A stretch of DNA of 44,690 bases from NCBI GenBank assembly GCA_002793435.1, contig PFQF01000031.1, positions 1-44,690 on the forward strand. The letters run 5' to 3'. The DNA is from Candidatus Berkelbacteria bacterium CG_4_10_14_0_2_um_filter_35_9_33_12 (GTDB lineage: Bacteria > Patescibacteriota > UBA1384 > GWA2-35-9). Each line of letters starts with the position of its first letter. Position 1 is the first letter of the stretch. A model generated the notes under the pieces. The model did no database searches. It saw only the letters and a program-made list of their open reading frames with translations, and was not told where the DNA came from. Shown piece by piece: positions 1-7,214 of the stretch. Made by a program: the position numbers and the translations under genes.

Positions 1-147
1 TAACAATTCCTTACCCTTTTCATCATCAACAGTAATTTCTTTCTTGCCAGAGATCGATTTTGAACTATTTTTATACACATAATAAACCCCAAAAAGTAGC
101 AACAATATTACTACAAACCCAACAACTCGTGACCATTTTATATTCAT
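1..147 (-). CDS. hypothetical membrane-anchored protein, N-terminal 49 aa only (gene runs off the left edge)
   Basis: ATG at 147-145 sits 4 nt after a GGAGGG SD (rc of 152-157). Translation MNIKWSRVVGFVVILLLLFGVYYVYKNSS... has one N-terminal TM helix. The frame is open to position 1. Confidence 0.5.
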   Translation of the reverse strand, partial: MNIKWSRVVGFVVILLLLFGVYYVYKNSSKSISGKKEITVDDEKGKELL

Positions 148-320
148 TTTTCCCTCCGCTCCGTGATTTTTATTCCATAACAGGAAAAAAATCCGGAAGC
201 CCGATGAATAGATAAACCTATTTTTAGATTTCTTAAATTAAGAATACTGAAAGAGGTTTATTGTTGACGGGCAAGTTTACATTTTTTACCTATTTTAATT
301 ATACATAAAATCGTTTTTCA

Positions 321-373
321 ATTCAATACAAACCATTACACACCTACGATGTGTGTAATGGTTTGTATTGAAT
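321..373. repeat. perfect 23-bp inverted repeat with 7-nt spacer (attcaatacaaaccattacacac / ctacgat / gtgtgtaatggtttgtattgaat)
   Basis: Read directly from the sequence. No T-run follows on either strand, so it is not a classical terminator. Confidence 0.9.
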
Positions 374-383
374 AAAGTATATT

Positions 384-404
384 AAAAAAGGACCGAGACG
401 GTCC
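384..404 (-). terminator. rho-independent terminator of the 414-758 gene
   Basis: Stem ggaccg/cggtcc (390-395 / 399-404) with a 3-nt loop, followed on the minus strand by a T6 run (rc of 384-389). Confidence 0.7.
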
Positions 405-413
405 TTGAATTTT

Positions 414-758
414 CTAAAAATAAGTGGCTCGAATTGCCAACCAAACTTTTCCTTCTTTAATAATGCGAGTTAATATAATCTGCAAGAAAATTTCATTGGA
501 ATTTAAATCGTCAAAAACGATTATATCTGGCGTTCTTGACATTCTATTATTTCTGATAAATCTATTTGGGTATTTTTCGGATAGAAAATCATTTATGATT
601 TGACGAATTGTTTGTCCTGAAAATTCTACTCCTAAATTCGTTATATCAAATTCAACTTTCATATCGCTATCGGTTCCAACTATTATTGGATATTTTATAC
701 CTAACTCAATCAAATTACTTAACAAATATTGACTGAAATCTAGCAACGGATTTTTCAT
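414..758 (-). CDS. hypothetical protein (114 aa)
   Basis: Track ORF 414-827. I prefer the internal ATG at 758 (MKNPLLDF...) because it follows AAGGGGGTG at SD distance. No family recognised. The gene has its own terminator. Confidence 0.5.
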   Translation of the reverse strand: MKNPLLDFSQYLLSNLIELGIKYPIIVGTDSDMKVEFDITNLGVEFSGQTIRQIINDFLSEKYPNRFIRNNRMSRTPDIIVFDDLNSNEIFLQIILTRIIKEGKVWLAIRATYF

Positions 759-839
759 GTTCGGCACCCCCTTAAAACTGTTGATAGTATAGCCAAATAT
801 GAAGTTTTTGTCAATAAAAAAACTCAATTATGAGTTTTA

Positions 840-913
840 TGGCAGGTCTGGAGAGAATCGAACTCCCGCCATCGGTTTTGGAGACCGATGTTCTACCACT
901 AAACTACAGACCC
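840..913 (-). tRNA. tRNA-Trp (anticodon CCA), CCA end encoded
   Basis: The reverse complement folds as a cloverleaf: acceptor GGGTCTG/CAGACCT, anticodon arm TCGGT-CTCCAAA-ACCGA, T arm GGGAG-TTCGATT-CTCTC, discriminator G plus CCA. 74 nt. Confidence 0.9.
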
Positions 914-925
914 TAAAGAAGCAAA

Positions 926-1093
926 TTACTTTGTTTCTTTGTGTAAAATTGTCTTACGACATTTTCTGCAATGTTTCTTTTTTTCCAATTTATAATTCAC
1001 ACCGGCTTTACCATGCGATTTATTGACATAATAATTAATAGTTCCACATTCAGAACATTTTAATTTAACATAATTCGATTTTCTTTTTGCCAC
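926..1093 (-). CDS. rpmG: 50S ribosomal protein L33
   Basis: Not in the ORF track (55 aa, GTG start). Translation (M)AKRKSNYVKLKCSECGTINYYVNKSHGKAGVNYKLEKKKHCRKCRKTILHKETK has the typical L33 CxxC...CxxC zinc ribbon. It lies between tRNA genes, as in many bacteria. Confidence 0.9.
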   Translation of the reverse strand: MAKRKSNYVKLKCSECGTINYYVNKSHGKAGVNYKLEKKKHCRKCRKTILHKETK

Positions 1094-1126
1094 ATTTACC
1101 TTTCTGATTATTATTTAATGATTTAA

Positions 1127-1202
1127 TGGAGCCGATAGTCGGGTTCGAACCGACGACCTGCTGTTTACAAAACAGCTGCTCTAGCCACTGAGCTATATCG
1201 GC
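1127..1202 (-). tRNA. tRNA-Thr (anticodon TGT), CCA end encoded
   Basis: Reverse complement: GCCGATA acceptor, anticodon arm GCTGT-TTTGTAA-ACAGC, T arm GTCGG-TTCGAAC-CCGAC, TATCGGC-T-CCA. 76 nt. Confidence 0.9.
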
Positions 1203-1203
1203 G

Positions 1204-1232
1204 TGGTGCTGCCTATTCAACGAGGTTCGAAC
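1204..1232 (-). other. decayed partial copy of the tRNA-Tyr 3' end (T-loop to CCA); candidate att-type duplication
   Basis: The reverse complement GTTCGAACCTCGTTGAATAGGCAGCACCA can be compared with the tRNA-Tyr 3' end GTTCGAATCCTTCACCCAGCACCA. They share GTTCGAA, CCT and the terminal CAGCACCA. It cannot form a T stem and ends 1 nt before tRNA-Thr(TGT). Confidence 0.45.
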
Positions 1233-1264
1233 TTTTTTCACAGAAAAAAATTTGTCTGATACTG

Positions 1265-1482
1265 GATAAACCCCGCCGGCGTCTGCGAACGCCTCTTGTG
1301 TCGTTACGCCAAAACATTGTAAGCAATGTGCATGCTATGATGTTTTGCTTGTTTGTAATGTTTTGCCGTAATGTAAACCGCTGTTCACTTCGCAGACGCT
1401 GTAATGATATTGATTGATTTTTTAATGTTTATTTGTCGTTCAAAAATTTCCCTCCCCACACCCCTTCCATTTTTTGAACGAC
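1265..1482 (+). repeat. left copy of the islet-flanking inverted repeat (218 bp, including a 94-nt hairpin insertion at 1293-1386)
   Basis: Segments 1265-1292 and 1387-1482 match the reverse complement of 3984-4115 almost base for base. It contains helix gcgtctgcgaa/ttcgcagacgc and helix gtcgttcaaaaa/tttttgaacgac, the latter with loop tttccctccccacaccccttccat. Confidence 0.9.
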
Positions 1483-1500
1483 ATTATTTGAGAATTGTAA

Positions 1501-1809
1501 TTAAGCAAAAACTCTATTTGAAATACGGACTTTAATATTTGGAGCATACATTTTTTGTCGGTTGTGCGATTTTTCTATAATATCGTACAACGGTTGAATA
1601 TTAGTTGGGATTTCGCTAATTGATATTTTATTTATTTTAGTTAGCACAAATAATTCGTCTAAAAACGAACGGGAGATAGAATCGATATTTTCCAGCGATA
1701 CAGCATTATATTTTTGCTCAACTATTTTTTTCACCACAAACCGCACGATTCCCCTTGTCGCACATATAATATCTAAGGTAAATAGTTTTAGTATTTTTGT
1801 TTCTTTCAT
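1501..1809 (-). CDS. DUF4325 / STAS-like domain protein (102 aa)
   Basis: Track ORF 1501-1908. I prefer the ATG at 1809 (MKETKIL...), which follows AGGAGAGAGGAAG. The central ...AVSLENIDSISRSFLDELF... resembles the signature I associate with DUF4325 (STAS fold). This is recalled from memory, not searched. Confidence 0.55.
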   Translation of the reverse strand: MKETKILKLFTLDIICATRGIVRFVVKKIVEQKYNAVSLENIDSISRSFLDELFVLTKINKISISEIPTNIQPLYDIIEKSHNRQKMYAPNIKVRISNRVFA

Positions 1810-1855
1810 ATTTACTTCCTCTCTCCTAAATATTAGTTTACTCCAATTATCATAT

Positions 1856-2422
1856 TTAATCAATATATTGCACATAATCAATCCCAACTTTCTTATACTT
1901 GCCGGCAATAGTTATACCGCTGTCTAGCATACAAACATCGAGATACTCTTTCGCCGGATAAAACTGTGCATTTATCCAGCCGAATTCTGCTTCGGAATGA
2001 TCTTCGATATTAGATATAATTTCATCGATTGCAAGATTTAGTGCACTGACAGAGCCCTCCGGAGAGCCAAGTTTTGATAAGCAAATTGCGATTAAACTTT
2101 CTAAAATAGTTGATTTATCACGCAAGGACTTATCATCTTTTTTAGATGCAGAGAATTTGTAAATTGGAATATATTTAGAAGACGGCAGTTTTGGTTTTGT
2201 TAGCCCACTGGGAAAATTAAAATAATTAAGATACGATTTGCAAACTTCGTCTTTCGGTTTAATATATTTTTTTGAACCTTCACTAATTAAAGCTGAGACC
2301 GGCAAGAGTTCTATCGGATGCATAAATTTTGCATCGCTCAAATCCACGATATCGACAGCGCTTTTTAGCAATTTTATTAAATTTTTAGTTGGTTGAAGAA
2401 TTGATTCCATAGCAGTTACCAT
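1856..2422 (-). CDS. GHKL (HATPase_c, SpoIIAB-like) ATPase-like protein, 188 aa, possibly C-terminally truncated
   Basis: N-box-like DEIISNIEDHSE and G1-box-like LDSGITI lie near the C terminus. The ORF stops 16 aa after G1 and no G2 box is visible. Its start ATG overlaps the stop of the upstream 55-aa ORF (TAATG). Confidence 0.5.
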   Translation of the reverse strand: MVTAMESILQPTKNLIKLLKSAVDIVDLSDAKFMHPIELLPVSALISEGSKKYIKPKDEVCKSYLNYFNFPSGLTKPKLPSSKYIPIYKFSASKKDDKSLRDKSTILESLIAICLSKLGSPEGSVSALNLAIDEIISNIEDHSEAEFGWINAQFYPAKEYLDVCMLDSGITIAGKYKKVGIDYVQYID

Positions 2423-2589
2423 TATTTATGAGTTGCTTCTTCGTCGATATCAGTTATGAAAACTATATTACTTTTATAAATTGGTTTTACAACTGGTGCA
2501 TAATCTGCCATTCTAACCTCGATTATGTTTGGATTATCAGCAACTTTAGATATATCTTTTAACGCTTCGATAAATTCTATTAATTCCAT
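2422..2589 (-). CDS. small hypothetical protein (55 aa), translationally coupled to its neighbours
   Basis: Not in the ORF track. ATG at 2589 lies 9 nt after the dpnI-like stop, with AAGGAAACA between them. Translation: MELIEFIEALKDISKVADNPNIIEVRMADYAPVVKPIYKSNIVFITDIDEEATHK. Its stop overlaps the next ATG. Confidence 0.45.
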   Translation of the reverse strand: MELIEFIEALKDISKVADNPNIIEVRMADYAPVVKPIYKSNIVFITDIDEEATHK

Positions 2590-2598
2590 TGTTTCCTT

Positions 2599-3369
2599 TC
2601 AAGATAACTTGTATTTTCCTTTTGATATAAAACCTACATATCCTTTATCTCGTAGAACTTGTAACTGTTGCCGAATTTTATCTCTAATATGGCGATTATT
2701 TGGGTATTTAATGCGTAATTCGCTTTCAAAAGCATAGACCTCATCAAGTGAAAAATCTTTTTTGCCAAGCTTATCAATACAAATCATAGTCTCTAATAAC
2801 CAACCTTTTGCTTCTGCTTCTTTCTCCTCTCGTAAGAAAAGTGTTTTTTTCCATTCGGCAAGTATTTTTTCTTTTGGTTCAACTTGCTTGTCCTTAACAA
2901 AGAATATTTTTCCTGTTCGTGGAACGCATTGGAGTAAAATATTGCAACCGACCCAACCTGTGCGTCTCGCTGTTTGAGACAATGCTTTACGCCTCTCTAT
3001 AATATCTGGAATAAAAAAGTGCTTAGGGATAACAAGAAAATTTAGAACAGAAAAGTTGTATGGATCGTAATTAAGCAGAAATAAATTTGGATTATTTGAG
3101 CTATGTAAACGTTCAATCATCGTCCGGTATGCCCCATCAACTATTTTTAAGCCAACGGAATCTCTCTTACTCTTTAATTCATAATCTTCGTGACAATTTG
3201 AACAAAAAAAATCTGCAACCGGTTTATTATTTCCGTATTTATCAATACCGAGACGACCGCAGTTTGGACAATAAATCTGCCTGTCAACCCAATCTTCCGT
3301 TAAAACTCTTATTTTTTGTGACGAACTTGTGTATTCGTTAGATAAACTGGTATCAAAAGATAAGTTCAT
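2599..3369 (-). CDS. DpnI-like (Dam-replacing family) methyl-directed type IIM restriction endonuclease, 256 aa
   Basis: From the MNLSFDTSL start it is colinear with pneumococcal DpnI as I remember it: SQKIRVLTEDWV, YCPNCG, PVADFFCSNCHEDYELKSK, DGAY..M, NNPNLFLL, ARRTGWVGCNI, and a C-terminal winged helix ending IRQQLQVLRDKG...GKYKL. Confidence 0.85.
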   Translation of the reverse strand: MNLSFDTSLSNEYTSSSQKIRVLTEDWVDRQIYCPNCGRLGIDKYGNNKPVADFFCSNCHEDYELKSKRDSVGLKIVDGAYRTMIERLHSSNNPNLFLLNYDPYNFSVLNFLVIPKHFFIPDIIERRKALSQTARRTGWVGCNILLQCVPRTGKIFFVKDKQVEPKEKILAEWKKTLFLREEKEAEAKGWLLETMICIDKLGKKDFSLDEVYAFESELRIKYPNNRHIRDKIRQQLQVLRDKGYVGFISKGKYKLS

Positions 3370-3385
3370 TATAAAGGTTATAATC

Positions 3386-3568
3386 TTACTTATCAACGCT
3401 AACTCTTTTGTCGGCATGAACCGTAAAACCTCCATTTGACAAGTTGTAGGGAGGATCCGCAAAAATCATATCAACCGAGTTTTCTTCTATTTCTTCGAGT
3501 AATTTAAAACTATCTCCCAAGTAAAGAGTAAAATTATTTCTTTCAAAATATGGTTTGTCTTTCATCAT
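3386..3568 (-). pseudogene. 5' stump (60 codons) of a beta-class N6-adenine DNA methyltransferase (DpnA / M.DpnIIB-like)
   Basis: ...SVDMIFADPPYNLSNGGFTVHADKRVSVDK* contains motif IV (DPPY) and the SNGG...VSVDK segment, then stops. Full-length enzymes are about 260-300 aa, with the TRD and FxGxG motif downstream. The dpnI-like start lies 17 nt beyond the stop. Confidence 0.8.
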
Positions 3569-3765
3569 CTCACTAGCTCATCAATCTTTATCTCTAACAC
3601 TTTGCAAAGAGAGATTACAGTTTCTATTTTAGGGTTTTTGTTAATCCCATTTTCAATCTTGGCAATAGTGTTTAAAGATACATCTGCTTGACGAGCTAAT
3701 CCCTCCATTGTTATTTGTTTTTGTTTTCTTAATTTTTTCAGATTAACCGCTATGTTATTTGACAT
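3565..3765 (-). CDS. XRE-family HTH regulator, R-M controller (C) protein-like, 66 aa
   Basis: Typical HTH_3 sequence (LKKLRKQKQITMEGLARQADVSLNTIAKIENG). Its stop overlaps the methyltransferase stump start (ATGA), the usual C-M arrangement. Confidence 0.75.
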   Translation of the reverse strand: MSNNIAVNLKKLRKQKQITMEGLARQADVSLNTIAKIENGINKNPKIETVISLCKVLEIKIDELVR

Positions 3766-3780
3766 ATATAGTGTATCAAT

Positions 3781-3796
3781 ATTATACTATAGTATA
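3781..3796 (-). promoter_or_regulatory. candidate C-box operator (14-bp perfect palindrome TATACTATAGTATA, 3783-3796) overlapping a TATAAT -10 (rc of 3781-3786)
   Basis: Palindrome read directly from the sequence. The -10 lies 15 nt upstream of the C-gene ATG and no SD is visible, consistent with a short or leaderless C transcript. Confidence 0.4.
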
Positions 3797-3885
3797 CATA
3801 CTAAAGTAATAATAAAAGTTATTTGTAGCTAAATAAATAGTATCCCATTAACAACCAAAGGTCAAACTTAAAGGGAGTATCAACC

Positions 3886-3921
3886 GTTGCCTGTGCACGA
3901 GTGGGTTGGGGCAAAGGCAAC
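3886..3921 (-). other. stem-loop (11-bp stem with one mismatch) with a C-rich loop on the minus strand (CCCAACCCACUCGU)
   Basis: gttgcctgtgc / gcaaaggcaac arms read directly from the sequence. It sits in a GC-rich patch of otherwise AT-rich spacer. Confidence 0.6.
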
Positions 3922-3983
3922 ACCGCTTTTATATTGGTATAGTTGTATTCTTTTCTTTAATTCCGTCCAACCTAATTCCGTTT

Positions 3984-4115
3984 GTCGTTCAAAAAATGGA
4001 AGGGGTGTGGGGAGGGAAATTTTTTGAACGACGAATAAACATTAAAAATCAATCAATAGTCGTTAGCGCATCTGCGAAGTAGGGAGAGCGTTCGCAGACG
4101 CCGGCGGGGTTTATC
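3984..4115 (-). repeat. right copy of the islet-flanking inverted repeat (132 bp), 5 nt downstream of tRNA-Tyr
   Basis: Its reverse complement matches 1265-1292 plus 1387-1482. Helix 1 carries one G-U change, and the loop is CGCUCUCCCUAC instead of the 94-nt insertion. Helix 2 and its CCCUCCCCACACCCCUUCC loop are identical. Confidence 0.9.
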
Positions 4116-4120
4116 AATTA

Positions 4121-4206
4121 TGGTGCTGGGTGAAGGATTCGAACCTCCGTAGGCATAAGCCAGCTGATTTACAGTCAGCCCTCGTTGACCACTTGAGTAA
4201 CCCAGC
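4121..4206 (-). tRNA. tRNA-Tyr (anticodon GTA), long variable arm, CCA end encoded
   Basis: Reverse complement: GCTGGGT acceptor, anticodon arm GCTGA-CTGTAAA-TCAGC, long variable arm, T arm GGAGG-TTCGAAT-CCTTC, ACCCAGC-A-CCA. 86 nt. Confidence 0.9.
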
Positions 4207-4250
4207 ATATTACACATTTCACTACACATCAATATCCAATTTTTAACCTA

Positions 4251-4325
4251 TGGAGCCGATAAGCGGACTTGAACCGCTGACCTACTCCTTACCATGGAGT
4301 TGCTCTACCACTGAGCTATATCGGC
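4251..4325 (-). tRNA. tRNA-Thr (anticodon GGT), CCA end encoded
   Basis: Reverse complement: GCCGATA acceptor, anticodon arm ACTCC-ATGGTAA-GGAGT, T arm AGCGG-TTCAAGT-CCGCT, TATCGGC-T-CCA. 75 nt. Confidence 0.9.
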
Positions 4326-4337
4326 AAATACTTAACT

Positions 4338-4365
4338 ATTTTACCCTATTTTAACATTTATTCAA
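4338..4365 (-). promoter_or_regulatory. candidate promoter of the tRNA array (TTGAAT-16-TAAAAT)
   Basis: -35 is the rc of 4360-4365 and -10 is the rc of 4338-4343. The -10 ends 12 nt before the first tRNA. Confidence 0.35.
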
Positions 4366-4473
4366 CTAGTTGGCGAATTTATTCAATTTTACTAAAACAA
4401 ATCTTGATTAACTTAATGCAAAATTCCACACTAAAATCGTTTTTTCCGAAATACGACAAAACTAACCTGGCTA

Positions 4474-4498
4474 CTCCGCAACCTTCAAGGTTGCGGAG
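4474..4498. other. 10-bp perfect hairpin (ctccgcaacc ttcaa ggttgcggag) in the divergent intergenic region
   Basis: Read directly from the sequence. No gene ends at it on either strand, so its role (insulator or regulatory) is unknown. Confidence 0.5.
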
Positions 4499-4520
4499 CT
4501 TGGTTGTTTTGCATTTTCCC

Positions 4521-4549
4521 TTGACAAATACTAATACTTAGTATATAAT
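4521..4549 (+). promoter_or_regulatory. consensus sigma-70-type promoter TTGACA-17-TATAAT
   Basis: TTGACA at 4521-4526, a 17-nt spacer, TATAAT at 4544-4549, 13 nt upstream of the AGGAGG SD of the next gene. Confidence 0.65.
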
Positions 4550-4576
4550 TTTGGCAACTTCTAGGAGGTGGGTACA

Positions 4577-5386
4577 TTGAAAACCCGTATGGTTTTTTTT
4601 CTATTTTCGATTTTTATTTATATTTTTTCTAATAAATCTTATGCTAATAAATGGAAAGATCTTGGCTCGATGGTTTTGGCGAGTCAAATGAAAAAAAATA
4701 ATAATAAAGAAAAAGATAAAAAAAGTTATGAATTGACTAAAAAGTTAAACGAAGGCTCGTTCGATCTTCAATACTCTAACTTTCAAAAAGATGATAAGAA
4801 GAGGGTCTATCTCAAAAGAATTGATTTTTCGGGAAATTTTTGGGGCGATGTCGTTCAAGATAGCTCCCGCTACTTAATTGAAAAATCATTGGTAAATTTG
4901 GGCTTCAAAACAGTCCAAAATGTTAACGAAATTCGGCAAGAAACTGCCGAAAGAGATGAAATGAGAAATAATAATGAAGTAAACCAATCGACTCTACCCG
5001 CTTCCAAAACAATCGAACGGGAAGATTATGAACTTTTTTGTACCATTTATTCATTAAAAACCCGTAAAGATTTTGAGCTTTTTGCTCTTTATAAATTCTC
5101 CTTGTGGGGAATTTATGGTTTAGATATTGAAAAATCCCGATCAACGATCGGTATTGTTTTCAAGTTTGTAGACAATACTACTCAAACTTCAGAATATATT
5201 GTCCGATCGGTCGGACAGACTGAATCCATCGATGAATTAGAAGTCGGTGGGCTCGGAATTTATTATCAAAAAAATGAAAACAAAGACGAAGTGATCGAAT
5301 TTTCAAGCTTTGTTAAAGCATTGAATAATTTCGAAAAATATTTCAATAATCTTGGCGAGAGAAAAAAAGACAAAAAAAACAAGTAA
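4577..5386 (+). CDS. hypothetical secreted, Lys-rich protein
   Basis: Track ORF starts at GTG 4568, inside the SD. I prefer the TTG at 4577, 8 nt after AGGAGG. The N terminus (M)KTRMVFFLFSIFIYIFSNKSYA looks like a signal peptide. Confidence 0.55.
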   Translation: MKTRMVFFLFSIFIYIFSNKSYANKWKDLGSMVLASQMKKNNNKEKDKKSYELTKKLNEGSFDLQYSNFQKDDKKRVYLKRIDFSGNFWGDVVQDSSRYLIEKSLVNLGFKTVQNVNEIRQETAERDEMRNNNEVNQSTLPASKTIEREDYELFCTIYSLKTRKDFELFALYKFSLWGIYGLDIEKSRSTIGIVFKFVDNTTQTSEYIVRSVGQTESIDELEVGGLGIYYQKNENKDEVIEFSSFVKALNNFEKYFNNLGERKKDKKNK

Positions 5387-5441
5387 TCCTAAAATTCTAA
5401 AAAATTTTTATCTTTGATATTATATTTTTAATCTATACTTA

Positions 5442-5465
5442 TCCGCCGAAAGGCGGACTTTTTTT
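5442..5465 (+). terminator. rho-independent terminator
   Basis: tccgcc-gaaa-ggcgga hairpin followed by c plus T7. Confidence 0.75.
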
Positions 5466-5474
5466 ACTTAAACA

Positions 5475-6116
5475 CTAAATACTTCTCTTGTTTCTGAGTT
5501 CTTCTAGAAGATCCTGATATTTTTGACTGCCCGGCTCGAGCTGGATCGCTTTTGAAACCGCTTCTTTGGCTTTTTCATAATCCTCTAGACCGATATTGGC
5601 TAACGCTAAATTGTATAAGCGAGCTGAATTATTTTGTCCAAAATTGAGTGATTGAGTAAAAAAATCTTTGGCTTCAATAAATTTCTGATTTTCAAGCGCA
5701 ATAATACCCAAGCGATTATAAAGCTTCGGATCGGTTGAATTAATTTCTAAAAGTTCTCGGTATAATTCTTCCGCTAAAATTACACTCCCTCGTTGTAACA
5801 AATCATCTGCTTTTGCCATTTTATCTTCATAACTAATCTCTTTGTCAGCTAAAACTTCATCAACCACTTTTTTCTGTTGTTTAAAGTCTATTTCTTCTTC
5901 GACCTTTTCATCGCTCAAATTTATGACCTGTCTTTTTTTTGCTAATCTTTTTTCTTTTTGAAAAATGATATATTTTTTTATTTTGCCAAAAAGATTAAAA
6001 ATATTTTTCCAATTAAATCTCGAAGCTCCATCTGTCAACCAACCAGTTGGCAATTTTCGTGCCACAATGATAAAAACAATGGCAGCTGAAACTAAAATAA
6101 TAATATTGAGATACAT
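5475..6116 (-). CDS. TPR-repeat protein with an N-terminal TM anchor
   Basis: N-terminal hydrophobic helix. The C-terminal half has TPR-like repeats (AEELYRELL..., YNRLGIIALENQKFIEAKDFFTQSL, YNLALANIGLEDYEKAKEAVSKAIQL). Confidence 0.65.
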   Translation of the reverse strand: MYLNIIILVSAAIVFIIVARKLPTGWLTDGASRFNWKNIFNLFGKIKKYIIFQKEKRLAKKRQVINLSDEKVEEEIDFKQQKKVVDEVLADKEISYEDKMAKADDLLQRGSVILAEELYRELLEINSTDPKLYNRLGIIALENQKFIEAKDFFTQSLNFGQNNSARLYNLALANIGLEDYEKAKEAVSKAIQLEPGSQKYQDLLEELRNKRSI

Positions 6117-6911: not shown

Positions 6912-7214
6912 ATGGAAGATAAAATAATCCAATGTAGAGATTGTAATAACGACTTTGTTTTTACCGGTGGAGAACAGGAATTCTATAATTCAAAAGGATT
7001 TTCAGCTCCAATGCGCTGTAAAGATTGTCGCCAAAAAAACAAACAATCCAGCAATACAGGTAGAGAAAAAAAAGATAATGTTTTTAGCGAAATTACTTGT
7101 CGAGAGTGCAAGAAAACCGACCGAGTGCCTTTTGCAATCACAGGCAAAGGTGATGATCTACTGTGTAGTGATTGCTGGAAAAAACAGCGAGAAACGACTA
7201 GTGACGAAAAGTAA
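6912..7214 (+). CDS. zinc-ribbon domain protein (two CxxC...CxxC units)
   Basis: CRDCNNDFVFTGGEQEFYNSKGFSAPMRCKDCRQ, then CRECKK...CSDCWKK. Confidence 0.65.
   Translation: MEDKIIQCRDCNNDFVFTGGEQEFYNSKGFSAPMRCKDCRQKNKQSSNTGREKKDNVFSEITCRECKKTDRVPFAITGKGDDLLCSDCWKKQRETTSDEK

What the first reader, a model, noticed from the sequence alone, without database searches (positions are those of the whole stretch)
1204..4147. Integrase-less 2.9-kb defence islet inserted at the 3' end of tRNA-Tyr inside a conserved tRNA-rpmG array
Seen in sequence:
- On the minus strand the order is tRNA-Thr(GGU), tRNA-Tyr, 2.9 kb of accessory DNA, tRNA-Thr(UGU), rpmG, tRNA-Trp.
- One nucleotide upstream of tRNA-Thr(UGU) lies GTTCGAACCTCGTTGAATAGGCAGCACCA (rc of 1204-1232).
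- This looks like a decayed copy of the tRNA-Tyr T-loop-to-CCA segment (GTTCGAATCCTTCACCCAGCACCA).
- The terminal 8 nt CAGCACCA are identical, and it cannot fold as a tRNA.

Established knowledge: duplication of a tRNA 3' end at the far boundary is the hallmark of site-specific integration of genomic islands.

Unusual points: no integrase, transposase or recombinase ORF exists anywhere in the islet. Its whole coding content is one defence operon, and it carries long internal inverted repeats at both ends (reported separately). This points to a stranded or minimal cassette mobilised in trans, or to exchange by homologous recombination through flanking tRNA genes, as with the pneumococcal Dpn cassettes.
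Basis: partly seen in the sequence, partly recalled or inferred. Interest (0 to 1): 0.65.

Follow-up and report, generated by a model that had tools for sequence, protein, structure and literature searches.

The report
Recombinase-less DpnI islet after tRNA-Tyr
A 2.9-kb piece of accessory DNA carrying a methylation-dependent (DpnI-type) restriction enzyme sits exactly after the tRNA-Tyr gene of a tiny groundwater bacterium, without any gene for moving itself; it is a fairly ordinary kind of defence islet with a few unusual details.

Summary
On the minus strand the order is tRNA-Thr(GGU), tRNA-Tyr, 2.9 kb, tRNA-Thr(UGU), rpmG, tRNA-Trp. CAGCACCA, the last 8 nt of tRNA-Tyr, recurs 1 nt upstream of tRNA-Thr(UGU). 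Only this 8-mer is statistically supported, not the "decayed T-loop".

The 2.9 kb is accessory DNA:
- The nearest other species (Berkelbacteria GW2011_GWA2_35_9) has 74 nt there, and most Patescibacteria have 4-90 nt.
- Rare same-species contigs carry different DNA next to the same left arm.
- An 82%-identical copy of the six-gene cassette lies beside a tRNA-Leu in another metagenome, with an identical 17-nt junction, CCAGCACCA|TAATTGAT.

No recombinase gene lies in the islet, and none among the ORFs of 150 aa or more in the 44.7-kb window.

The cargo is not one clean defence operon. It holds a C-protein-like HTH gene, a 60-codon methyltransferase remnant under purifying selection, an intact DpnI-family nuclease gene and a 55-aa ORF. 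It also holds a histidine-kinase-like ATPase gene with an 84-residue deletion and a STAS-like ORF.

How it moves is unresolved. I favour insertion in trans with an 8-bp repeat, followed by cargo replacement through recombination. It is a new member of a known kind: restriction units flanked by long inverted repeats and 8-bp repeats, described by Furuta et al. 2010.

The parts
4251..4325 (-). tRNA-Thr(GGU), first gene of the array
   Evidence: ARAGORN; Rfam tRNA 71.6 bits
4121..4206 (-). tRNA-Tyr(GUA). Its CCA end is the proximal boundary of the islet.
   Evidence: ARAGORN; Rfam 55.6 bits
4121..4128 (-). Direct-repeat copy 1: CAGCACCA, the last 8 nt of tRNA-Tyr
4113..4120 (-). TAATTGAT, the first 8 nt of the islet. 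Together with CCAGCACCA it forms a 17-nt junction identical to the one in L063.
3959..4120 (-). Right inverted-repeat arm. It has a GC-rich hairpin and a 14-bp A/T stem with a 21-nt C-rich loop. The inner 24 nt (3959-3982) have a partner only in the L037 allele.
3766..3958 (-). Upstream region of the HTH gene, with the perfect palindrome TATACTATAGTATA at 3783-3796. I infer this is a C-box-like operator. The whole region is absent from L063.
   Evidence: sequence; promoter-like sites; alignment with L063
3565..3765 (-). 66-aa HTH_3 protein, like a controller (C) protein
   Evidence: Pfam HTH_3 1.6e-14; PADLOC HTH_VI and Control_protein
3386..3568 (-). 60-codon 5' remnant of a beta-class DNA methyltransferase gene with the DPPY motif. 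It is conserved and under purifying selection.
   Evidence: PADLOC MTase_II, profile positions 3-58 of 260, 2e-17; PDB CcrM and PvuII N-termini; 49% identity to the N-terminus of the second methylase of the pSRQ700 operon; dN/dS 0.07 against L063; also found upstream of DpnI in L064/L065, L072, L073 and L074
2599..3369 (-). DpnI-family methyl-directed (Type IIM) restriction endonuclease, 256 aa, apparently intact
   Evidence: Pfam DpnI 3e-79 and DpnI_C 2.4e-31; PADLOC mREase_II 3e-118; PDB 4esj 2.5e-83, with E25, D53, E64, K66 and the four Cys aligned (PMC3424567)
2422..2589 (-). 55-aa ORF of unknown function. A small ORF follows DpnI in most homologous loci.
   Evidence: 43% aa identity to the L063 ORF, dN/dS 0.29
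1856..2422 (-). 188-aa ORF: a histidine-kinase-like ATPase relative with an in-frame 84-residue deletion, probably inactive
   Evidence: Family members are mostly 220-310 aa; weak HATPase_c_2 hits on relatives; alignment to the 270-aa L063 protein
1501..1875 (-). 102-124-aa ORF, weakly STAS-like (DUF4325)
   Evidence: Pfam DUF4325 0.0038 and 0.0013 for the L063 protein; dN/dS 0.12
1259..1483 (+). Left inverted-repeat arm. It has about 95 extra nt (1293-1386) with their own hairpin. The same arm is present in the alternative allele L037.
1212..1258 (-). 47 nt between the left arm and the repeat: an A/T hairpin and the T-loop-like GTTCGAAC. Not conserved in the sister species.
1204..1211 (-). 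Direct-repeat copy 2: CAGCACCA, 1 nt upstream of tRNA-Thr(UGU)
1127..1202 (-). tRNA-Thr(UGU), the distal flank
926..1093 (-). rpmG (ribosomal protein L33)
   Evidence: Pfam Ribosomal_L33 1e-11
840..913 (-). tRNA-Trp(CCA)

Best explanation
What it is: a non-autonomous accessory islet at 1204-4120, lodged exactly after the CCA of tRNA-Tyr in a Berkelbacteria-like (Candidate Phyla Radiation) genome.

What it does (inferred from family membership):
- It encodes a DpnI-type nuclease that cuts incoming DNA carrying Dam-type G-m6A-TC methylation.
- Such an enzyme needs no partner methylase.
- A small C-protein-like HTH repressor probably controls it through the palindrome TATACTATAGTATA.
- The nuclease gene sits behind a 60-codon remnant of a GATC-system-type methylase gene. 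This resembles the neisserial 'dam-replacing gene'. The remnant is kept by selection, perhaps for translational coupling or as a small protein.
- The ATPase and STAS-like genes are a separate module of unknown role, and the ATPase gene is damaged.

How it got there (inferred):
- The unit was inserted by an enzyme supplied in trans, a tyrosine-integrase-like or transposase-like activity.
- Insertion occurred at or through the last 8 nt of tRNA-Tyr and left CAGCACCA on both sides.
- Before insertion, tRNA-Tyr and tRNA-Thr(UGU) would have been 1 nt apart.
- The long inverted arms are the frame of the unit. Later change happened inside the frame, by deletion and by replacement of cargo through recombination.
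- In the sampled population it is now nearly fixed and probably immobile.
For: Insertion:
- The sister species L011 has tRNA-Tyr, 74 unrelated nt, then tRNA-Thr(UGU).
- Other Patescibacteria have 4-90 nt in this position.

Boundary repeat:
- CAGCACCA lies at 4121-4128 and 1204-1211. It occurs 3 times in the window against 0.39 expected. The positional chance is 4e-6 to 5e-4.

Mobility:
- L063 holds the same six genes at 82% nt identity beside tRNA-Leu(UAA) and a decayed tRNA end.
- The 17-nt junction CCAGCACCATAATTGAT is identical in both, although dS in the adjoining genes is 0.4-0.95.
- The DNA after the L063 cassette is homologous (E 2.4e-9) to DNA just inside the left arm of the alternative allele L037.

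Polymorphism:
- L037 and L062 share window 1-1483 at 99.8% and then carry a DUF1508 gene and other DNA.
- L004 and L008 diverge at window positions 2225 and 1634.

No recombinase.

Function:
- DpnI domains and catalytic residues are intact.
- GATC is not depleted, O/E 0.90. This is expected if only methylated sites are cut.

Precedent: restriction units without a transposase, flanked by long imperfect inverted repeats and 8-bp direct repeats (PMC2853133).
Against: - The repeat is only 8 nt, short for a tRNA att duplication.
- On the distal side the repeat is 47 nt away from the inverted arm, so this is not a clean 'terminal repeat plus target duplication' structure.
- No empty site of the predicted form, no circular junction and no candidate enzyme was found.
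- More than 60 same-species contigs all carry the islet in the same place, so there is no sign of current movement.
- L063 lacks the right arm and the promoter region, so the arms may not belong to the mobile unit.
- L063 may come from a related species in which the cassette was inherited vertically and the locus rearranged.
- The right end of the alternative allele was never seen.
Confidence: 0.5

Rival explanations
1. Cassette exchange by homologous recombination alone, as in the pneumococcal DpnI/DpnII locus. The tRNA genes and the conserved arms act as portable homology. DNA taken up from relatives replaces the cargo between them. No site-specific enzyme was ever involved. The 8-nt repeat is a leftover of an old local duplication of the tRNA-Tyr end.
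For: - Alternative cargo lies next to an identical left flank and arm.
- The breakpoints at 1483, 1634 and 2225 are nested and share the same left flank.
- There is no recombinase gene in the islet or among the large ORFs of the window.
- RecJ and RecO genes lie in the window.
- The precedent is the pneumococcal 'intercellular cassette mechanism' (PMC3812788).
Against: - It does not explain why the same 17-nt junction follows a different tRNA-like end in L063.
- It does not explain why the 8-mer sits exactly 1 nt before tRNA-Thr.
- The alternative allele seen is not a complementary methylase system.
- The right flank of that allele is unknown.
Confidence: 0.3
2. The arms are a resident long palindromic spacer of this species, such as a processing or terminator structure between tRNA-Tyr and tRNA-Thr. 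Successive genes were dropped into its centre. The inverted repeats would then be a by-product of the target, not part of the mobile DNA.
For: - The same left arm flanks two different cargos.
- L063 has the cassette without the right arm.
- The L011 spacer is itself an imperfect hairpin (sequence).
- Each arm is well structured, z about -3.
- In L037 the DUF1508 gene is again bracketed by a short inverted pair.
Against: - No cargo-free palindrome was found in the species.
- The arms have no detectable relative in L011 or in any other fetched locus.
- The model does not account for the CAGCACCA repeat.
Confidence: 0.12
3. The 2.9 kb is ancestral and was lost in relatives. The 8-mer match is chance, and nothing here is or was mobile.
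For: - Every long same-species contig has the islet.
- GC content does not differ from the surroundings.
- The unconstrained alignment of the 29-mer is weak.
Against: - The array is tight in most Patescibacteria.
- Alternative alleles exist.
- The cassette lies at another tRNA in L063.
- The positional chance of the 8-mer is 5e-4 or less.
- DpnI homologues sit in many unrelated contexts.
Confidence: 0.05

Closest known systems
Transposon-like restriction-modification units flanked by long imperfect inverted repeats and 8-bp direct repeats, without a transposase (Furuta, Abe & Kobayashi 2010, PMC2853133)
   Same: - Restriction genes lie between long imperfect inverted repeats that are unique in the genome.
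- An 8-bp direct repeat flanks the unit.
- There is no mobility gene.
- A relative has an empty site.
- Sometimes only part of a system lies inside the repeats.
   Different: - The arms here are longer (139-225 nt) and internally structured.
- The distal arm is 47 nt away from the 8-bp repeat.
- The target is the 3' end of a tRNA.
- The cargo is a methyl-dependent nuclease with a methylase remnant, not a restriction-methylase pair.
- The same arm also flanks other cargo.
tRNA-integrated genomic islands and integrative elements with a tyrosine integrase
   Same: - Insertion at the 3' end of a tRNA gene.
- A direct repeat of the tRNA end at the far boundary.
- Accessory cargo.
- Absent from a relative.
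   Different: - There is no integrase.
- The repeat is 8 nt rather than the usual tens of nt.
- The islet is very small (2.9 kb).
- It has inverted arms.
Pneumococcal DpnI/DpnII cassettes (Lacks et al. 1986; PMC3812788)
   Same: - A DpnI-family nuclease lies in a small cassette with no mobility gene.
- Different cassettes occupy one locus within a species.
- Exchange through flanking homology is plausible.
   Different: - The alternative allele seen here carries a DUF1508 gene, not a DpnII system.
- The flanks are tRNA genes and inverted arms.
- A second genome has the cassette at another tRNA.
Neisserial dam-replacing gene drg (PMC516771, PMC4269198)
   Same: A DpnI-family gene occupies the place of a DNA adenine methylase gene. 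In N. gonorrhoeae a frameshifted DpnA-like methylase gene lies next to drg.
   Different: - Here the remnant is a short 5' piece of a beta-class methylase gene.
- It travels with DpnI through many Patescibacteria.
- It is under purifying selection.
Controller (C) protein-regulated Type II restriction systems
   Same: A small HTH_3 protein gene lies upstream, with palindromes in its promoter region.
   Different: There is no active methylase to be timed against. Binding to the palindrome was not tested.

Membership tests
DpnI family, Type IIM methyl-directed restriction endonuclease | N-terminal PD-(D/E)XK DpnI domain plus C-terminal winged-helix DpnI_C domain | tested here: met
   Pfam PF06044 3e-79 and PF17726 2.4e-31. 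PDB 4esj 2.5e-83 over residues 1-254.
DpnI family, Type IIM methyl-directed restriction endonuclease | Catalytic E25, D53, E64 and K66, and four zinc-binding cysteines | tested here: met
   All are aligned and identical in the ungapped N-terminal alignment to R.DpnI. The residues are as listed in PMC3424567.
DpnI family, Type IIM methyl-directed restriction endonuclease | Cleaves G-m6A-TC but not unmethylated GATC | not testable with these tools
   Needs enzyme assays. Normal GATC frequency (O/E 0.90) is compatible.
tRNA-targeting integrative island (tyrosine-integrase type) | Integrase gene inside the island, usually next to the tRNA | tested here: not met
   None of the six ORFs has a recombinase domain. 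Neither does any of the 27 window ORFs of 150 aa or more beyond position 7000.
tRNA-targeting integrative island (tyrosine-integrase type) | Direct repeat of the tRNA 3' segment at the distal boundary | tested here: inconclusive
   There is an exact repeat of 8 nt only. The proposed 29-nt decayed copy is not supported.
tRNA-targeting integrative island (tyrosine-integrase type) | Empty site in relatives | tested here: met
   L011 has 74 unrelated nt between tRNA-Tyr and tRNA-Thr(UGU). Other Patescibacteria have 4-90 nt. The exact predicted empty site was not seen.
tRNA-targeting integrative island (tyrosine-integrase type) | Excision and a circular intermediate | not testable with these tools
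   Needs read-level data.
Transposon-like restriction unit flanked by inverted repeats (Furuta et al. 2010) | Restriction gene(s) flanked by long imperfect inverted repeats, with no transposase | tested here: met
Transposon-like restriction unit flanked by inverted repeats (Furuta et al. 2010) | The repeats are unique to the unit and absent from the genome with the empty site | tested here: met
   There are only two copies in the window. None is in L011 or the other loci. Whole genomes were not searched.
Transposon-like restriction unit flanked by inverted repeats (Furuta et al. 2010) | A short direct repeat immediately outside both inverted repeats, present once at the empty site | tested here: inconclusive
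   The 8-bp repeat is present. The inverted-repeat match runs up to it on the tRNA-Tyr side, but the repeat lies 47 nt from the arm on the other side. The 8-mer occurs once in L011, at the tRNA-Tyr end.
Pneumococcal-type Dpn cassette locus | Alternative cassettes between the same two flanks within one species | tested here: inconclusive
   Other cargo lies beside the same left flank in L037 and L062. The right flank of that allele was not recovered.
Pneumococcal-type Dpn cassette locus | The alternatives are complementary: a DpnI nuclease versus a GATC methylase system | tested here: not met
   The visible part of the alternative allele has a DUF1508 gene and an unknown gene.
Dam-replacing arrangement (drg-like) | A DpnI homologue standing where a DNA adenine methylase gene was, with methylase remains adjacent | tested here: met
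   A 60-codon methylase 5' remnant abuts DpnI. The best plasmid homologue is the second methylase of the methylase-methylase-nuclease operon of pSRQ700. That this system recognises GATC is my recollection, not tested here.
C-protein-controlled restriction system | A small HTH controller gene with a palindromic operator upstream | tested here: inconclusive
   The HTH_3 protein hits PADLOC Control_protein models. The palindrome TATACTATAGTATA lies at 3783-3796. Binding was not tested.

The most novel reading that the evidence does not exclude
The islet may belong to an undescribed family of small cassettes of Candidate Phyla Radiation bacteria. These would have no recombinase and be framed by inverted repeats. 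They would insert at the nucleotide after a tRNA CCA end, marked by the conserved junction CCAGCACCA|TAATTGAT, and swap cargo within a conserved frame. An enzyme not yet linked to them would move them. In addition, the conserved methylase remnant might be a working small protein or a coupling device that controls DpnI.
Probability: 0.15. Interest if true: 0.7.

Novelty: new member of a known kind. Interest (0 to 1): 0.42.

Why it matters
Candidate Phyla Radiation bacteria mostly lack CRISPR and are thought to rely on restriction systems. Very little is known about how their tiny genomes gain and swap such genes.

- This locus gives a concrete, nucleotide-resolved case. It shows a defence cassette at a tRNA end, without its own mobility gene, with alternative alleles in one natural population and a related copy at another tRNA.
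- It shows that DpnI-type nucleases are extremely common and well conserved in this group (more than 7,700 homologues, the best 120 listed 70-100% identical).
- It shows that they often drag along a selected fragment of the methylase gene they replaced. That fragment is a testable lead on how such nucleases are regulated.
- None of this overturns current ideas.

Tried and rejected
- Rfam scan of 1-6000 found only the four tRNAs. The arms match no family.
- Exact searches for arm motifs and for the 'Z' motif in viral contigs gave no hits.
- blastn of the whole islet against phage and plasmid collections gave nothing, apart from a 65-nt DpnI match in Neisseria chromosomes filed as plasmids.
- nhmmer with the arms, the distal spacer and the promoter region against all other fetched loci found nothing beyond L037 and L062.
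- I looked for homologues of the partial unknown gene of the alternative allele and found none. That allele could therefore not be extended. L062 adds only 35 nt.
- Exact look-ups of rpmG, the 265-aa neighbour, the HTH protein and the 114-aa neighbour found only the DpnI allele on long contigs. No empty site turned up.
- The GGGTATAGT...TTGCCACCA motif at the L004 and L008 breakpoints gave seven hits in viral contigs. They are unrelated chance matches.
- The idea that the 110 nt between tRNA-Leu and the pseudo-end in L063 is a collapsed arm has only weak support (p 0.03-0.08).
- I guessed that the roughly 205-aa ORFs in other tRNA arrays are LAGLIDADG endonucleases. Pfam does not support this.
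- Integron or attC cassettes and invertible segments were considered. I dropped them because there is no integrase or invertase and no inverted-orientation contig.
- L002 looked like a variant but only has a scaffold gap of Ns over the right arm.

Full report
**1. The observation**

ARAGORN and Rfam find four tRNA genes on the minus strand:
- tRNA-Thr(GGU), 4251-4325
- tRNA-Tyr, 4121-4206
- tRNA-Thr(UGU), 1127-1202
- tRNA-Trp, 840-913

rpmG lies at 926-1093. The 2,918 nt at 1203-4120 separate tRNA-Tyr from tRNA-Thr(UGU).

It ends 1 nt before tRNA-Thr(UGU), and nothing there is called a tRNA.

Statistics of the repeat:
- An unconstrained local alignment of the tRNA-Tyr 3' end with the 56-nt spacer recovers only CAGCACCA (p 0.013-0.02). 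The "decayed T-loop" part is therefore not supported.
- GTTCGAAC is a palindrome and a generic T-loop motif.
- The 8-mer is rare: 3 copies on both strands of the window against 0.39 expected.
- Its chance of lying at a given position is 4e-6. Anywhere in the spacer it is about 5e-4.
- I therefore accept an 8-nt direct repeat at the two boundaries.

The inverted repeats are real. 1259-1483 pairs with 3983-4121, and the left arm has about 95 extra nt. Each arm folds better than shuffled sequence, z about -3.

**2. What the islet encodes (all on the minus strand)**

- *HTH gene.* A 66-aa HTH_3 protein resembles restriction controller proteins. The perfect palindrome TATACTATAGTATA lies upstream at 3783-3796.
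- *Methyltransferase remnant.* A 60-codon ORF matches the first 58 positions of a 260-position Type II methyltransferase profile (2e-17). It also matches the N-termini of CcrM and M.PvuII. It stops where DpnI begins.
- *DpnI-family nuclease.* The 256-aa protein hits Pfam at 3e-79 and 2.4e-31 and PDB 4esj at 2.5e-83. E25, D53, E64, K66 and the four zinc cysteines of R.DpnI are conserved (PMC3424567).
- *55-aa ORF.* Function unknown.
- *188-aa ORF.* Its relatives are mostly 220-310 aa and weakly resemble histidine-kinase-like ATPases. Compared with the 270-aa protein of L063, it has lost 84 residues in frame.
- *STAS-like ORF.* 102-124 aa, weak DUF4325 match.

PADLOC recognises only the nuclease, methylase and HTH parts. 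"One defence operon" is therefore an overstatement.

There is no recombinase in the islet. There is none among the 27 window ORFs of 150 aa or more beyond position 7000. These are core genes: the cell-wall and division cluster, ArgRS, RecJ, enolase, trigger factor, ClpP, Fpg and RecO.

**3. Is it an insertion?**

- Exact look-ups of four flanking or internal proteins returned more than 60 contigs of the same species. Sources are Crystal Geyser genome bins GCA_002772415, GCA_002773935, GCA_002782705 and GCA_002791755, plus JGI, ENA and Logan assemblies.
- Every long contig carries the islet in the same place at about 99.9% identity.
- The nearest other species found is Berkelbacteria GW2011_GWA2_35_9 (L011, rpmG 96% identical). 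It has tRNA-Tyr, 74 unrelated nt, then tRNA-Thr(UGU).
- In 24 further Patescibacteria loci, the tRNA-Tyr that precedes the tRNA-Thr next to rpmG is typically 4-90 nt from it. In L030, which has the window's gene order, the gap is 4 nt.
- The 2.9 kb is therefore accessory.
- GC content does not set it apart. All close DpnI homologues are from Patescibacteria. Any transfer was probably within the group.

**4. Polymorphism within the species**

- A scan of metagenome contigs with the arm hairpin found L037 (Ga0210057_1038444). It matches window 1-1483 at 99.8%. This stretch covers tRNA-Trp, rpmG, tRNA-Thr(UGU), the 8-mer and the entire left arm.
- Beyond that point L037 continues with 23 nt that match the inner extension of the window's right arm. 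Unrelated DNA follows, with a DUF1508 gene and part of an unknown gene.
- L062, an ENA assembly, is identical across this junction.
- Two low-coverage contigs leave the window sequence inside the islet. L004 does so after 2225 and L008 after 1634. Both run into a shared motif, GGGTATAGT...TTGCCACCA. L005 and L036 end exactly at 2225.
- The locus thus has one dominant allele and several rare ones. All share the tRNA-Thr side.

**5. The same cassette elsewhere**

- DpnI homologues are very numerous: more than 7,700, with the best 120 listed at 70-100% identity. They lie in many different contexts.
- L063 (Logan SRR13554777) has the whole six-gene cassette at 82% nt identity.
- L063 begins inside a tRNA-Leu(UAA) gene. 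After 110 nt comes a decayed copy of that tRNA's 3' end, AGTCCCACCTCCAGCACCA (17 of 19 identical). TAATTGAT and the HTH gene follow.
- The 17 nt CCAGCACCATAATTGAT are identical to the window's tRNA-Tyr junction. In contrast, dS in the adjoining genes is 0.4-0.95.
- L063 lacks the right arm and the promoter region.
- Downstream of its cassette, L063 has a 75-nt stretch homologous (E 2.4e-9) to DNA just inside the left arm of L037.
- The window allele has lost that stretch.
- So the proximal junction and the distal inner region are shared between different cargos and different tRNA contexts. This is what a family of mobile or exchangeable units would show.

**6. The methylase remnant**

- A 60- or 80-86-codon methylase 5' fragment stands directly upstream of DpnI in the window, L063, L064/L065, L072, L073 and L074.
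- Between the window and L063 its dN/dS is 0.07, against 0.10 for DpnI. It is maintained, not decaying.
- Its best full-length plasmid homologue is the second methylase of the methylase-methylase-nuclease operon of Lactococcus plasmid pSRQ700 (49% identity). From memory this is the GATC-specific LlaDCHI system of the DpnII type. I did not test that here.
- A DpnI enzyme cannot coexist with GATC methylation. A DpnI gene standing in a truncated methylase gene therefore parallels the neisserial dam-replacing gene (PMC516771; PMC4269198).
- In N. gonorrhoeae a frameshifted DpnA-like methylase gene lies next to drg.

**7. Mechanism**

Shown:
- The islet is accessory.
- It has an exact boundary at the CCA of tRNA-Tyr.
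- It is flanked by an 8-nt direct repeat and by long inverted arms.
- It has no mobility gene.
- The species has alternative alleles.
- A second tRNA context shows the same junction.

Inferred:
- An enzyme acting in trans inserted the unit at the tRNA end.
- The cargo was later changed by deletion and recombination within a conserved frame.

The closest description in the literature is the class of restriction units flanked by long imperfect inverted repeats and 8-bp direct repeats without a transposase (PMC2853133).

Weak points:
- The repeat is short.
- There is a 47-nt gap between the distal repeat and the left arm.
- No empty-site or circular junction was seen.
- L063 may reflect vertical descent plus rearrangement.

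Exchange by homologous recombination alone, or insertion into a resident palindromic spacer, remain live alternatives.

**8. Verdict**

The islet is a new member of a known kind and of moderate interest. Its more unusual features are:
- the tRNA-end junction shared across genomes;
- the structured arms shared by different cargos;
- the selected methylase remnant that accompanies DpnI in Candidate Phyla Radiation bacteria.

Noticed in passing
whole window 1-44690: The tetranucleotide ACGT is almost absent: 4 seen against about 46 expected, O/E 0.09. CATG is halved (O/E 0.48). GATC is normal (0.90). This suggests strong restriction pressure on ACGT in this lineage.
   Followed up: no
L011 447-771 (Berkelbacteria GW2011_GWA2_35_9): The tRNA-Tyr of the sister species carries a group I intron in its anticodon loop (Rfam RF00028, 58.9 bits, L011 473-707). 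ARAGORN does not report this tRNA.
   Followed up: partly
L011 1-456; L031 3954-4577; L034 5907-6542: A family of roughly 205-aa ORFs sits inside or beside the tRNA-rpmG arrays of three different Patescibacteria. They have an N-terminal HTH and a shared GEG(S/T/A)K...N(S/T)DP motif. Pfam gives no endonuclease hit, so my guess of a homing endonuclease is unsupported.
   Followed up: partly
window 3386-3568; L063 382-564; L064 3969-4211; L072 177-437; L073 480-734: A 5' fragment of a methyltransferase gene (60 or 80-86 codons) travels with DpnI through several lineages. It is under purifying selection: dN/dS 0.07 between the window and L063.
   Followed up: yes
window 1856-2422: The histidine-kinase-like ATPase gene has a clean in-frame 84-residue deletion relative to L063, between KKVG and IDYVQYID. 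It appears at this same 188-aa length on every same-species contig where it was called in full.
   Followed up: yes
window 2225/2226 and 1634/1635 (L004 1-24, L008 1-55): Rare same-species contigs switch to other DNA at these points. Both switches begin with GGGTATAGT...TTGCCACCA. Two more contigs end exactly at 2225. The motif occurs nowhere else in the material fetched.
   Followed up: partly
window 3368-3396: A near-consensus promoter-like site, TTGATA-17-TATAAT (11 of 12), overlaps the DpnI start codon. It is conserved in L063, and its position makes an ordinary promoter role unlikely.
   Followed up: no
L071 (N. gonorrhoeae NZ_CP119142, 7209-13406): In a gonococcal chromosome filed as a plasmid, leuS is followed by the DpnI-family drg gene. 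Next comes a DpnA-like methylase gene split by a frameshift, and the stretch is unannotated in this collection.
   Followed up: partly
L002 4960-5111: One public genome bin has a run of N exactly over the right arm and the 3' half of tRNA-Tyr, so its tRNA-Tyr is not called. The inverted repeat probably breaks assemblies.
   Followed up: yes
beyond window position 1 (L042-L045, L052-L056): Strains of this species differ downstream of the 160-aa ORF. Some have 187-aa and 558-aa genes, and others have a gene of 1,956 codons.
   Followed up: no
window 321-373: A long near-perfect hairpin lies between the 114-aa ORF and the next gene. Rfam gives only a sub-threshold Thr-leader match. It looks like a terminator.
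   Followed up: no
window 1450-1468 and 3998-4016: The 21-nt loop of the arm hairpin is CCCTCCCCACACCCC on one strand, which puts four G-runs on the other strand. This is very unusual for a genome with 32% GC, and its role is unknown.
   Followed up: no
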